A stretch of 62,923 bases of DNA, the filler included, from Octopus bimaculoides (Eukaryota): the NCBI RefSeq assembly GCF_001194135.2. It is 3 parts of 3 records of this genome, joined end to end, with 100 filler letters (N's around TTAATTAATTAA, not from the genome) between each part and the next. Parts side by side here need not be neighbours in the genome. Positions count along the whole stretch, not along the records: positions 1 to 26,722 come from NC_068983.1; positions 26,823 to 57,359 come from NC_068982.1; 1 more part is not named here. One strand, given 5' to 3'. Below, one piece after another: positions 285 to 54,520 of this stretch. Numbering within the stretch: position 1 is the stretch's first letter; each line of letters begins with the position of its first letter. Under the pieces are notes generated by a model that saw nothing but the letters and a program-made list of their open reading frames with translations, was not told where the DNA came from and ran no database searches. Both the position numbers and the translations under genes were made by a program.

Positions 285-328
285 GGCGAATACGTATTTT
301 CTATACCTTGTGGTATTTCATCATGGCC
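285..328 (-). ncRNA. minimal type I hammerhead ribozyme motif (slightly decayed)
   Basis: Minus strand reads GGC-CATGATGA-AATACC ACAA GGTATA-GAAA-ATACGTAT-TC-GCC: stem I GGC/GCC, CUGAUGA core with one extra A, 5-bp stem II ATACC/GGTAT, palindromic stem III AATACGTATT, UUC cleavage triplet. Confidence 0.6.
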
Positions 329-378
329 GGTATGACAGACTTTAACAGACTGTACAGTCTGTTAAAGTCAGTCATACC
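329..378. repeat. 50-bp near-perfect palindrome, no loop
   Basis: ggtatgacagactttaacagactgt|acagtctgttaaagtcagtcatacc; 25-bp arms, one mismatch (337 vs 370). Confidence 0.95.
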
Positions 379-657
379 TATCATTTGGGATATCACAGAA
401 ACAGCTGGAAAACTTCTAATAATTAATTAATTAACTAATTAATTAATCACTTCAAATTCACCTTACTCTAATTAAAGATTCTAAATGACTTGAAATACTC
501 GTTCTGCTTTAGTTTTTGTTATCCTTTTCCCTCTGATATATACCTGCTAACTCGGAAGCCTACTGCTAATACTATGTATATATATATTCATATAAACGTA
601 TAAACCTCTACATATAATTATGCATACGTATACTATTATATATATGTAAACGTGTTT

Positions 658-1040
658 TATTTTATTCTTTTACTTGTTGCATTCATTTGACTCTGGTCTT
701 TCTGGAGCACAAACTTGAAGGATTTTAAACGAACAGGTTAACTCCTGGACTTATTCTTTTAAGCCTAGTCCTGACTTTATCGACCTCTTTTGCCGAGCAT
801 CAGAATTAAGGTGACGTAAACACACCAACATCAAGGAAGGGGGCAAACAGGACACAAAGACACACATACATATACGACGGGCTTCTTTCAGTTTCCGTCT
901 ACCACATCCATTCACAAGGCTTTGGTCGGGCCGAAGATATAGTAGAAGACACTTTCTCAAGATGTCACGCACTAGGACTGAAATTGGAGCCATGTTGTTG
1001 GGAAGCAAGCTTCTTAGCACACAGCCACGCTTGCGGCTAC
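658..1040 (-). mobile_element. tRNA-derived SINE family A (CORE-like motif; possibly octopus OR2)
   Basis: Matches other copies in the window (e.g. 58980-59327): head gtggctgtgtg...aagcttgcttcc with A/B-box-like motifs, internal microsatellite, conserved 3' part. Confidence 0.75.
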
Positions 1041-1364
1041 CAATATCCAAGGTACCACCTGTCTAAGGTACCACGCAGTGCAACTGAACCCCAAACCATG
1101 TGGCTTGGTGTACTAACGTCCCCATATTATAAGCCAGGCCTTGTAATTGTTAAGTGATTTCCCTCTGCATGAAACACCTGGTGCCATGTTAACAAACAAA
1201 TATATAATATTTCTCCGCCAATCGGTGTTGCGCACTTATTCTCACTCATTGGATTTTAGCGAAGAAAGGCTTCCGGCGTTATTAAACACTAAACACGAAC
1301 ATAGATTCAAAAGTGCCGTGGAAATATGTGTTTATATAGGGATGTTAGTCGAAGAAATCGAATC

Positions 1365-1656
1365 CAGGACTTATTCTTTGTAAGCCTAGTACTTATTCTA
1401 TCGGTCTCTTTTGCTGAACCGCTAAGATACGGGGACATAAACACAACAGCGTCGATTGTCAAGCAATGGCAGTGGGGACAAACACAGACGCACATACATA
1501 TATATGCAGTATATACGACGGGCTTCTTCCAGTTCCAGTCTACGAAATTCACTCACAAGGCTTTGGTCGGCCCGCAGCTATAGTAGAAGACACTTGCCCC
1601 AGATTCCACTCAGTGGGACTACACCCGGAACCATGTGGTTGGGAAGCAAGCTTCAC
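1365..1656 (-). mobile_element. SINE family A copy, 5' truncated
   Basis: gacttattctttgtaagcctagtacttattctatcggtc...gacacttgccc...ccggaaccatgtggttgggaagcaagc shared with other copies. Confidence 0.8.
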
Positions 1657-1876
1657 ATACATAATTACATGCATATACACACACATAATGATTTTCCTAC
1701 AGGACATAGTGTTCTCAGATATTATGTAACTTATTTGTCATATTTACACTAGTTTAAGTTACAAGCTTATTTGACTGTAGATTGTTTGCACAGTAATGAA
1801 ACAAATAAAAACACACAATTTGAAATCTCAGTTGTTCTGTATCCAACACGAGCTCACTGGTCACAATGTCTGTATG

Positions 1877-1964
1877 TACTCGAGATTTTATATCACGTGT
1901 TTCATCGTTGTAAACTAGCATACTCGAGATTTTATATCATGTATTTCATCGTTGTAAATTAGTA
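1877..1964. repeat. 44-bp tandem duplication (2 copies)
   Basis: tactcgagattttatatcacgtgtttcatcgttgtaaactagca followed by a copy with a few substitutions. Confidence 0.9.
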
Positions 1965-52500: not shown

Positions 52501-52949
52501 CCACATAAATACATAAGCTCGCCTCCCCACGCATATATACGCACTCACACCAGAGTATCCTGAAAACATTCTAGAAAAACCAGAATAAATACTTCAAGTA
52601 TGATGCACAGATTAGATTTATAATTTTATGCTCTTTCACTTGCATACACCGAGTTTCTTTTAGCTCTGCAAGCTTTTTGCAGCATCAGTGAATACTTCAA
52701 TTTACTGTTTGCTATGTATCAGAGGGACAGATGTCGTCTAAGCATGTGGCGACATGACATTGACAAGCCAAAGCATGAGTGAAATATATCTACGTTCCCG
52801 TGAATCACTGCAGGACAATGTTTGTCTCACCCCGATATATATTGTGCTTTTAAAACAATATGACAACGGAAAGATTTTCTCACAGGCAAAATAACAGCTT
52901 GAGCTAAGGCCGAACGAGGTTACTAAAATCCGAATTGAATGGCTCTATC

Positions 52950-53552
52950 TAGGATCAGTTAGGAAATCTATGAGAAAAACAGCACCATGACGCAATTCAC
53001 TCTGCAAGAAATTTGGAAACGACATGCTGTACTGCTTGGCATTCGCGCCGGAGGCTCCAATACGAACATTTCAGAGTGCCTGAGTATCAATTTTAAGACA
53101 GTGCAATCTCAGGACATGTACCGAGAGTGATAAAAATCAAGCATTCAGTCAACATCATGGTGTTTGGAGCGATCACTAGTGATGGCGATGTTATGCCTCC
53201 ATTCATCTTCCCACACGGCCTCACGCTCAACACGGAGACCTACATCGAGTGCCCGGAGGAGGTAGTGCTGCCATAGGTGAAGAAGGTGGCTGCTGGAAGA
53301 CCCTATGTCTGGCAACAGGACTTTGCACCATGCCAGTCATGGCTGTCAGACAATTTCTGCGACCATATTACCCCTAACATCTGACCTGCTAACTCCCCAG
53401 ACTGCAACCCCCTTGATTATCATGTGTGGGGCCCAATTGTGCAAGAGGCCAACAAAACTCCTTGTAACACCAAAGATGAACTGAAGGCAAGGATTATGGC
53501 AGCATTCACCAACTTAAGCAAGGAGACCGTTCAGAAGAGTTGCAGAAGAATT
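52950..53552 (+). mobile_element. Tc1/mariner (maT/DD37D-like) internally deleted fragment
   Basis: MTQFTLQEIWKRHAVLLGIRAG... joined to VPRVIKIKHSVNIMVFGAITSDGDVMPPFIFPHGL..GRPYVWQQDFAPC..SPDCNPLDY. Confidence 0.8.
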
Positions 53553-53680
53553 TAAACACAGGCATTTTTATTCTGATGTTTAATCTTATATCTAACATTC
53601 TGTATTTGACATATACTTGATTTTACATGATTGATATATGTGCTAATTCATATTTATAATGTATAATTTATAAATTTTAA

Positions 53681-53796
53681 TTCTTAATATTACAAAGTAT
53701 AATTTTTATTCTTAATTTCTTAATATTACAAAGTATAATTTTTATTCTTAATTTCTTAATATTACAAAGTATAATTTTTATTCTTAATTTCTTAAT
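53681..53796. repeat. 36-bp minisatellite, 3 perfect copies plus a partial
   Basis: ttcttaatattacaaagtataatttttattcttaat at 53681, 53717 and 53753. Confidence 0.95.
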
Positions 53797-53863
53797 CTTT
53801 AATGCTTAATTGTATTGCTTATTTTAAAGGGATGTAAAATTAAATATATAATATTTTGAAATA

Positions 53864-53997
53864 GAACCTGAAGAGATGTTGGAATAATTGTAAATCTGAT
53901 GATTGCATATATGTATTCATATATGTATGTATATAGGCATACAGTTGTGTATATGTATATATATTGTAATCTCCCAATACTGAAACACGTGTAGTTC
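53864..53997 (+). ncRNA. hammerhead motif with expanded stem II loop
   Basis: GAAC-CTGAAGA-GATGTTGG..~90 nt AT-rich..CCAATACT-GAAA-C ACGT G-TA-GTTC; perfect palindrome ACACGTGT; AATAAA follows. Confidence 0.7.
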
Positions 53998-54471
53998 CTT
54001 CATATTAAATTTAATAAATATAAGTATTAAGTAAAGTATGATATAATTAACGAAGTACGTTATATACCAAGCTGGAAATTTTGGTTATATCCTTGAAGTG
54101 TTATTTCGTGATGTGCAAACTGATACCATGAGTTTACTGTCGGATATACTCATTAGGTTATTTTTGTATTATCTCAAATAGAATACCCGTATATCGATTA
54201 ATCCCCCAAAATTGAATATTGACTTTTATCAGATACTTTGTATATTTATAGATAAATATATAAATATACGATAAATAAGACTCCAAAGTACGATATGCAG
54301 ATGCATATAACGTTGTAGGGTTACACCTGATTGATTTGGAAATTTGTTTTCCCAAATTATATATGTGTGTGTGTGTGTGTGTGTGTGTGTGTGTGTATGT
54401 GTGTGTGTGTGTGAAGAGAGAAAAGGATAAAGAGAACAATGGCAAAGTTAGCAGTATATTTTATGAATAAA

Positions 54472-54520
54472 GTCTTACAGCTGTTTCAGGGAAAATCCAA
54501 TGTATCCCTTCATCGGAGAC
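54472..54520 (-). ncRNA. apparently intact minimal type I hammerhead (U4C)
   Basis: Minus: GTCT-CCGATGA-AGGGA TACATTGGATTT TCCCT-GAAA-C AGCT G-TA-AGAC; all three stems pair; palindrome ACAGCTGT. Confidence 0.8.

What the first reader, a model, noticed from the sequence alone, without database searches (positions are those of the whole stretch)
285..54520. Many minimal hammerhead ribozymes from unrelated families, nearly all with palindromic stem III
Seen: type I hammerhead geometry (stem I - C/UUGANGA-like core - stem II - GAAA - stem III - NUH - stem I) at 285(-), 3921(-), 5763(-), 7577(+), 10350(-), 28649(-), 44359(+), 45476(-), 49526(+), 53864(+) and 54472(-). The stems differ in sequence, yet stem III is self-complementary or one change away: ACGT, ACCGGT, ACAGCTGT, ACACGTGT, AATACGTATT, CTCAGAG (28649 deviates more). 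Most lie within about 250 nt upstream of a microsatellite. Established: Penelope-like elements and metazoan retrozymes carry minimal hammerheads with palindromic stem III thought to cleave as dimers. Inference: this genome hosts a diverse set of PLE-derived or PLE-mobilised ribozyme elements, many with no coding partner nearby.
Basis: partly seen in the sequence, partly recalled or inferred. Interest (0 to 1): 0.9.

Follow-up and report, generated by a model that had tools for sequence, protein, structure and literature searches.

The report
Penelope retrotransposon stubs carrying hammerhead ribozymes
Eleven small hammerhead-ribozyme motifs in this stretch of animal DNA are real and are likely the leftover ends of Penelope-like jumping genes that landed in simple repeats; most copies are damaged, and this kind of motif is already well described.

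Summary
All 11 sites exist. They are the 11 best-scoring hammerhead candidates in the window; nine outscore every site in 25 local shuffles, and a strict descriptor gives 4 hits against 0.07 expected. Only 3 of 11 are free of defects (44359, 49526, 54472), 2 have one mismatch and 6 have a broken core or stem. They form at most 9 families, not 11. Two sit 240-290 nt (SINE excluded) behind the RT-thumb/GIY-YIG end of decayed Neptune/Nematis-type Penelope-like elements (PLEs). A related full-length PLE elsewhere has a palindromic-stem-III hammerhead at the same place. Eight of 11 end 39-152 nt before a microsatellite (background 18%). Best reading: 3' stubs of 5'-truncated PLE insertions, mostly dead. 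Minimal hammerheads with palindromic stem III, U3-A8 cores, solo dispersal and 5' palindromes are all published for PLEs (PMC4209133, PMC3846280), and this scan reported the same kind in other genomes. What remains of interest: the density (about 200 per Mb in this chosen window), one A3-U8 core and U4C cores in three families. Cleavage was not tested.

The parts
285..328 (-). Degenerate min-hammerhead: 3-8 pair or stem I register broken, stem II 5 bp, stem III AATACGTATT; H17 at 288
   Evidence: 0.16 expected per window: weakest site
329..378 (.). 50-nt near-perfect palindrome directly 5' of the 285 motif (fold-back 5' end)
   Evidence: score 21; 0.5% of 400 random windows reach 20
3923..3958 (-). 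min-hammerhead with A6U lesion; stems I and II 4 bp each; stem III ACGT; same family as 45476
5763..5855 (-). Degenerate hammerhead: intact core, 66-nt stem II region, stem III ACAGTTGT, no stem I in register; (TA)n 89 nt downstream
   Evidence: 0.04 expected per window
6455..7050 (+). 5'-truncated, broken PLE ORF end: end of RT thumb, CX4CxxC linker, GIY-YIG endonuclease
   Evidence: (P0001 49% identity, E 1e-41)
7140..7390 (.). SINE-like high-copy insertion in the PLE 3' region; skipped in other family copies (approximate ends)
   Evidence: depth jump; joints 7137>7438, 7068>7379, 7089>7382
7577..7609 (+). min-hammerhead with A3-U8 core, stem I 4 bp, very short stem II, stem III ACCAGT (one change from a palindrome); (TG)n about 50-60 nt downstream
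   Evidence: family multicopy in two organisms
10349..10385 (-). min-hammerhead with U3-A8 core, stem I 6 bp, stem II broken, stem III ACCGGT; (CA)n 152 nt downstream
10618..11478 (-). 5'-truncated, frameshifted PLE ORF end: RT C-terminus and thumb, CX4CxxC linker, GIY-YIG; ends 238 nt before the 10350 core
   Evidence: (P0001 69%, E 2.5e-52; P0003 carries RVT_1 + GIY-YIG)
28648..28693 (-). min-hammerhead with U4C and a G5A lesion; stem III ACGCTGAGT; starts 24 nt after (CATA)n and ends before (TATC)n; family of 44359
44331..44389 (.). Perfect 29-bp fold-back hinged at the 5' edge of the 44359 motif; predicted to sequester it (-52.3 versus -5.0 kcal/mol); begins at an assembly gap
44359..44396 (+). 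Intact min-hammerhead, U4C core, stems I 4 bp and II 3 bp, odd palindrome ACTCAGAGT; (TA)n 39 nt downstream
45476..45510 (-). min-hammerhead, U4C core, stem II 4 bp (compensatory change versus 3921), ACGT, stem I not paired; (TA)n 92 nt downstream
49526..49561 (+). Intact min-hammerhead, U3-A8 core (same core as S. mansoni (4) in the PMC4209133 supplement), stems I 3 bp and II 4 bp, ACCGGT; (TA)n 59 nt downstream
53864..53997 (+). Hammerhead with intact core, stem I 4 bp, 107-nt extended stem II containing a TA-rich tract, ACACGTGT
54472..54520 (-). Intact min-hammerhead, U4C core, stems I 4 bp and II 5 bp, ACAGCTGT; inside a ~250-nt insert between (TA)n and (CA)n

Best explanation
The eleven motifs are real minimal type I hammerheads; two of them lie just behind the broken endonuclease gene of a Penelope-like element (PLE), and all eleven are likely the 3' (pseudo-LTR) stubs of 5'-truncated PLE insertions into microsatellites, most now likely inactive. 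Mechanism, inferred from published PLE biology: the GIY-YIG endonuclease nicks an AT-rich or microsatellite target; the RT starts internally about 40-150 nt downstream of the ribozyme, copies back through it and usually stops early, sometimes folding back to leave a 5' palindrome. Nearly every insertion therefore carries a hammerhead but rarely coding sequence, so hammerhead density tracks PLE insertion density. In an active tandem element the palindromic stem III would pair between two copies (double hammerhead), possibly with protein help, and cut the precursor at H17; the solo copies here have no partner and are decaying.
For: Shown here: motif excess over shuffles. RT-thumb + CX4CxxC + GIY-YIG remnants end 238 nt before the 10350 core and 527 nt (about 280 without the SINE) before the 7577 core. 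Their relatives are single-ORF RT + C-terminal GIY-YIG proteins; 108 of the 112 fetched proteins with a recognisable endonuclease start carry the CX2-5CxxC linker (153 examined). L001, a full-length relative (47% identity to P0003), has an intact C3-G8 hammerhead with stem III AACGTT 167 nt after its ORF; L002/L003 (one family) have a weaker motif with AGGCCT; L004 lacks the endonuclease end and has none. The 7577 family is multicopy in organisms A and B (76 contigs each at 7560; 46 and 44 at 7609), with copies lacking the SINE. Microsatellites lie on the 3' side in 8 of 11. Two strong 5' fold-backs. One compensatory stem II change, A-U in 3921 versus G-C in 45476. Every stem III is unstable or impossible as a monomer hairpin, and 10 of 11 form a favourable intermolecular duplex. 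Published: min-HHRs in pLTRs, mostly solo and heterogeneous, U3-A8 variant, weak dimer cleavage (PMC4209133); Neptune/Nematis linker and microsatellite bias (PMC8557442); 5' palindromes in pLTRs (PMC3846280); internal RT initiation and a protein-assisted hammerhead (PMC11167929).
Against: No PLE protein remnant upstream of 9 of 11 sites: best 10-21 bits, equal to random windows (max 21.5). The profile covers one subfamily, so this is weak either way. No target-site duplication, tandem or second pLTR was shown for any copy. No listed contig spans endonuclease to ribozyme core; one links 7033-7137 to 7438-7559, ending 22 nt short of the core. Only 40 of 303 variant rows were shown, so covariation in the 7577 core could not be read; the one stem I row shown (7609 G>A in nearly all copies) would shorten stem I unless its partner also changes, which was not visible. 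In PMC11167929 hammerhead cleavage was dispensable for insertion in vitro and no RNA ends were seen at the cut site, so the ribozyme's role is unsettled even for active PLEs. No Rfam hammerhead model matched three sites tested at E up to 10.
Confidence: 0.8

Rival explanations
1. Several families (28649/44359, 3921/45476, 54472, 53864) are complete, short, non-coding ribozyme elements (solo retrozymes or hammerhead SINEs) mobilised in trans by PLE proteins, not truncated PLEs.
For: No coding remnant for 9 of 11. Several inserts are short and lie between microsatellites: the core begins 24, 78 and 145 nt after the upstream microsatellite for 28649, 3921 and 54472. 28649 and 44359 share sequence only from stem I onward. 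Non-autonomous PLE derivatives with monomer copies are published (bioRxiv 10.64898/2026.07.22.740005).
Against: No 150-500-nt tandem unit at any site, which defines non-LTR retrozymes (PMC7229834). 5' ends differ between family copies, as truncation predicts. PMC7229834 describes retrozyme hammerheads as canonical with loop 1/loop 2 contacts and sets the minimal forms apart as PLE-type. Gaps next to several sites could hide tandems, so this is not closed.
Confidence: 0.15
2. The intact solo hammerheads have been kept for a host function, such as cutting host pre-mRNA in cis or as dimers in trans.
For: 3 of 11 are free of defects; family-related RNA reads exist at low depth.
Against: 8 of 11 carry lesions, as neutral decay predicts. 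No intact same-family, same-strand pair exists in the window, and a double hammerhead also needs matching stem I strands (established hammerhead geometry). 44359 is predicted to be trapped by its own fold-back. I recognised no host exon among the open frames of 90 aa or more; the 16 scanned against Pfam gave only retroelement domains.
Confidence: 0.03
3. The motifs are chance matches in AT-rich, repeat-laden DNA.
For: Sites 285 and 5763 alone are marginal (0.16 and 0.04 expected per window); the graded score was designed after the sites were seen.
Against: Strict descriptor 4 against 0.07; nine sites above all shuffle sites; same position behind the endonuclease in independent loci.
Confidence: 0.02

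Closest known systems
Minimal hammerheads (min-HHR) in the pLTRs of metazoan Penelope-like elements (Cervera & De la Pena 2014, PMC4209133)
   Same: Type I topology, CUGANGA or UUGANAA core, frequent bulge after A9, short stem I, palindromic stem III (ACGT and longer forms, as in the Aedes and Saccoglossus rows of its supplement), U3-A8 covariation, many heterogeneous families, mostly solo copies; molluscan examples listed (Lottia, Crassostrea).
   Different: Here stem III is mostly 6-10 nt; stem II is very short in 7577 and very long in 5763 and 53864; 4 sites in 3 families have U4C and one has A3-U8 (no such cores found in the supplement part and term searches I saw); local density is far higher than the published genome counts imply.
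Neptune/Nematis-clade EN+ Penelope-like elements (as defined in PMC8557442)
   Same: RT followed by a C-terminal GIY-YIG, CX2-5CxxC linker, CCHH-type cysteines and histidine, hammerhead after the ORF, microsatellite-adjacent 3' ends.
   Different: Only 3' fragments are present; Neptune versus Nematis was not resolved (no named reference sequences, no tree).
Non-LTR retrozymes of animals (PMC7229834; bioRxiv 10.64898/2026.07.22.740005)
   Same: Non-coding repeats with type I hammerheads and palindromic stem III, derived from or mobilised by PLEs; monomer copies occur.
   Different: No tandem units at any site; the motifs are of the minimal PLE type; circular RNA not shown.

Membership tests
PLE minimal hammerhead (min-HHR) | Conserved core with a Watson-Crick 3-8 pair, GAAA and NUH, in type I order | tested here: met
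   8 of 11 have a full core, counting U4C as allowed; 285, 3921 and 28649 have one change
PLE minimal hammerhead (min-HHR) | Short palindromic stem III, unstable as a monomer | tested here: met
   7 perfect even palindromes, 1 perfect odd, 3 with one mispair; monomer hairpins positive in energy or impossible
PLE minimal hammerhead (min-HHR) | Location in the pLTR behind a PLE RT-EN ORF | tested here: inconclusive
   Met for 7577 and 10350; no coding remnant for the other 9 with a one-subfamily profile
PLE minimal hammerhead (min-HHR) | Covariation across family copies | tested here: inconclusive
   One compensatory stem II change in 3921/45476; core rows for the 7577 family not shown; no genome held
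PLE minimal hammerhead (min-HHR) | Self-cleavage as a dimer or with protein help | not testable with these tools
   Needs an in vitro assay; RNA depth on the one motif laid was too low to show ends
Neptune/Nematis EN+ PLE (sites 7577, 10350) | [quoted passage not shown] | tested here: met
   Thumb then endonuclease order in the window, colinear with P0001-P0003
Neptune/Nematis EN+ PLE (sites 7577, 10350) | CX2-5CxxC Zn-finger-like linker before GIY-YIG | tested here: met
   CX4CxxC in both remnants; invariant C624, C629, C632 in alignment A6
Neptune/Nematis EN+ PLE (sites 7577, 10350) | Clade placement by RT phylogeny | not tested
   No named reference PLEs available from the tools; core RT absent from the window copies
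Neptune/Nematis EN+ PLE (sites 7577, 10350) | Partial-tandem pLTR-ORF-pLTR structure | tested here: inconclusive
   Both copies are 5'-truncated; self-BLAST shows no second pLTR
Non-LTR retrozyme | Hammerhead within head-to-tail repeats of about 150-400 nt | tested here: not met
   No array of such period among 123 TRF rows; gaps lie within 250 nt of several sites
Non-LTR retrozyme | Abundant circular monomer RNA | not testable with these tools
   One stretch laid; no back-joints among the rows shown at the motif, depth very low
Rfam hammerhead families | Match to a curated hammerhead covariance model | tested here: not met
   No hammerhead family at E up to 10 for 54472, 49526 and 45476; none among the 150 of 234 rows listed for the whole window

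The most novel reading that the evidence does not exclude
This genome is saturated with hammerheads, on the order of 100-350 per Mb, i.e. 10^5 or more copies if it is gigabase-sized, and several families are complete non-coding, non-tandem ribozyme SINEs that hitch-hike on PLE enzymes into microsatellites and have fixed unusual cores (A3-U8, U4C) family-wide. That would give a natural deep-mutational library of the dimer hammerhead and a direct test of whether cleavage is under selection in PLE mobility.
Probability: 0.2. Interest if true: 0.45.

Novelty: new member of a known kind. Interest (0 to 1): 0.17.

Why it matters
As it stands it adds another animal genome to those whose PLE debris carries minimal hammerheads, which is known. 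The possible value is quantitative: with so many families and copies, family consensuses could show which core and stem variants (A3-U8, U4C, 2-bp or 100-nt stem II, odd palindromes) selection tolerates, and so whether cleavage matters for PLE transposition. That question is open: in PMC11167929 cleavage was dispensable in vitro.

Tried and rejected
Whole-genome search: no genome held, so no genome-wide count or family consensus. Rfam: no hammerhead match. The repeat finder was swamped by N gaps and microsatellites; replaced by self-BLAST and nhmmer. No relatives of the PLE protein in viral contigs (136 pattern hits, none confirmed); the 7577 motif is absent there too. Sequencing runs: no RNA holder listed, which is no evidence on expression. 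Reads laid on 6450-7652 showed no pile-up of ends, but depth on the motif was 0-8 in what looks like an unstranded fragmented library, so there is no verdict on cleavage. A weak 5763-like match at 48561-48799 has no hammerhead and was rejected. A suspected endonuclease remnant upstream of 49526 did not exceed shuffles (15.5 bits versus a shuffle mean of 15.6). Extra descriptor hits at 40845, 41524, 62644, 2288, 6657, 29930 and 4498 lack palindromes or stems and score at chance level and were dropped. A cross-family MAFFT alignment was misregistered, so no covariance model was built. A homologue search for the LINE remnant found nothing. Literature: Lunse et al. 2017 and Przybilski & Hammann 2007 are not held; I saw only their titles in reference lists, and they may already report or test A3-U8 or U4C cores. 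Searches for A3-U8 with hammerheads and for hammerhead + octopus listed no paper describing either; supplement file 1 of PMC4209133 could not be searched, and bioRxiv supplements are closed.
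Full report
1. Setting. The window is AT-rich animal DNA with 7,923 Ns in 19 gaps, dense microsatellites and many mobile-element remnants. No whole genome is held. The run index calls the source 'organism A', with relatives B-E. The repeat landscape recalls octopus; that is from memory and untested.

2. The observation. All 11 motifs are at the stated coordinates. 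A strict type I descriptor that did not require a palindrome found 4 sites (7577, 44359, 49526, 54472) against a mean of 0.07 in 100 local dinucleotide shuffles and 0 in the reversed window; all four are self-complementary within one change. Relaxed variants gave 4-5 against about 0.1, and 1 against 0 for the long-stem-I form that catches 10350. Nine exceed every site in 25 shuffles; 5763 and 285 are marginal (0.04 and 0.16 expected per window); rank 12 is the inverted partial copy of 44359. No Rfam hammerhead model matched.

3. State of the copies. Free of defects: 44359 (U4C), 49526 (U3-A8) and 54472 (U4C). One mismatch: 7577 (A3-U8; stem III ACCAGT, dimer duplex predicted unfavourable) and 53864 (107-nt stem II region, mismatch near the junction). 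Broken: 285, 3921, 5763, 10350, 28649 and 45476. Every stem III is unstable or impossible as a monomer hairpin; 10 of 11 give a favourable two-molecule duplex, -1.7 to -11.1 kcal/mol. 3921/45476 and 28649/44359 are family pairs, the first with a compensatory A-U/G-C change in stem II, so there are at most 9 families. No two intact copies of one family lie on one strand.

4. Surroundings. Eight of 11 are followed within 39-152 nt by a perfect microsatellite run, against 17.9% of random positions within 160 nt; upstream it is 4 of 11. Two have strong palindromes at their 5' edge: 50 nt at 329-378, and a 29-bp fold-back at 44331-44389 that is predicted to trap the 44359 motif. The best relatives are P0001 (69%, E 2.5e-52), P0002 and P0003, a 758-aa RT + GIY-YIG protein. 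The ORF ends 238 nt before the 10350 core and 527 nt before the 7577 core, of which about 250 nt is a SINE. A profile of 153 related proteins found no other PLE coding remnant in the window, and a frameshift-tolerant scan found none upstream of the other nine motifs; both cover one subfamily only.

5. Related sequence elsewhere. Of 4 metagenome loci, L001 is a full-length relative with an intact C3-G8 hammerhead and stem III AACGTT 167 nt after the ORF; L002 and L003 (one family) carry a weaker motif with AGGCCT about 100 nt after the endonuclease; L004 lacks that end and has none. Contigs of two organisms and reads of two RNA runs laid on 6450-7652 show a multicopy family across both endonuclease and ribozyme, and copies that skip the SINE. 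No listed piece spans the whole element. Only 40 of 303 variant rows were shown and none falls in the core, so whether A3-U8 is family-wide stays open. The row at 7609 (G>A in nearly all copies) would shorten stem I unless its partner changes too. RNA depth on the motif was 0-8 with no pile-up of ends, which says nothing about cleavage.

6. How it most likely works. Shown: the motifs, their excess over chance, their lesions, the two coding partners, the 3' microsatellites and the fold-backs. Inferred: these are the 3' ends of PLE insertions. The endonuclease nicks an AT-rich or microsatellite target, reverse transcription starts internally a short way downstream of the hammerhead, passes through it and usually stops early. 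This explains why almost every stub holds a hammerhead and few hold coding sequence. In an active tandem the palindromes would pair into a double hammerhead; solo copies cannot, and decay. Rivals (complete non-coding ribozyme SINEs, host use, chance) are weighed in their sections.

7. What is known. PMC4209133 (read: main text parts 1-2 of 4; supplement file 2 part 2 of 3 plus term searches) describes min-HHRs in PLE pLTRs, thousands per genome (about 2,000 + 1,300 in S. mansoni, 4,000 in coelacanth, 9,000 in X. tropicalis), mostly solo, heterogeneous, 'probably related to truncated PLEs', with palindromic stem III, a U3-A8 variant and weak dimer cleavage; its alignment includes molluscs and the same core as 49526. 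PMC8557442 (passages) gives the CX2-5CxxC linker for Neptune/Nematis and the microsatellite bias. PMC3846280 (passages) reports 18- and 38-bp palindromes at pLTR 5' ends. PMC11167929 (parts 1-2 of 4) shows internal RT initiation, a protein-assisted hammerhead and no need for cleavage in vitro. PMC3088659 (passages) reports natural U3-A8, a viroid U4C variant and palindromic stem III in repeat-type hammerheads. PMC7229834 (passages) and bioRxiv 10.64898/2026.07.22.740005 (part 1 of 5 and passages) define tandem retrozymes. PMC6765202 (passages) reviews the dimer model. PMC13282606 (part 1 of 3 and passages) reports a PLE expansion and 31 recently active PLE families in Octopus vulgaris and does not use the word ribozyme; it is relevant only if the octopus guess holds. 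Lunse et al. 2017 could not be read. Earlier notes of this scan describe the same kind in other genomes and A3:U8 in a phage; they are unchecked and are not used as support.

8. Novelty and verdict. New members of a known kind. What I did not find in print is an A3-U8 or U4C core in PLE hammerheads, or a hammerhead survey of an octopus genome. The density here is 11 per 55,000 non-N bases, about 200 per Mb (95% Poisson 100-358); the five intact or one-mismatch copies give 91 per Mb (30-212). The window was chosen for its motifs, so this overstates the genome average by an unknown amount. Interest 0.17.

Noticed in passing
window 38935-40856 (-): Broken LTR-retrotransposon pol remnant (RT, RNase H, integrase zinc-binding domain by Pfam); Ty3/gypsy-like by domain order.
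   Followed up: partly
window 12475-13860 (-), with 14311-14511: Broken LINE-like RT remnant next to (ATT)40(TAC)27; a TAA-targeting Dong/R4-type element is a recalled possibility. No Pfam or homologue hit; one weak tblastn match.
   Followed up: partly
window 48096-48527 (+); 44464-44774 and 53250-53549: Remnants that read like Tc1/mariner transposases (recalled resemblance, no Pfam hit for the one scanned); the latter two are 78% identical.
   Followed up: no
window 26823-27458 (-): 212-aa open frame with a zinc knuckle (Pfam E 0.013), like a LINE ORF1 or gag.
   Followed up: no
window, many sites (e.g. 720-1654, 19227-19809, 24376-24598, 57606-57792, 58979-59324): At least two abundant SINE-like families beside microsatellites. 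Their wording and the repeat landscape recall octopus genomes; this is from memory and was not tested.
   Followed up: no
window 49048-49117 and 49264-49333: 70-nt direct duplication (84%) in the sequence upstream of the 49526 motif.
   Followed up: partly
window 5872-5938: Imperfect inverted repeat just 5' of the 5763 motif, weaker than those at 285 and 44359 (score 10).
   Followed up: partly
window 53654-53796: Four copies of a 36-nt AT-rich unit about 70 nt upstream of the 53864 motif.
   Followed up: no
L002 1481-1512 and L003 2473 onward: Hammerhead-like motif with a 7-bp stem I and palindrome AGGCCT but almost no stem II, about 100 nt behind a PLE endonuclease.
   Followed up: partly
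window 28685, 44363, 45506, 54516: U4C cores in three families; the G5A lesion at 28649 falls on the CpG that U4C creates, consistent with CpG decay (inference).
   Followed up: partly
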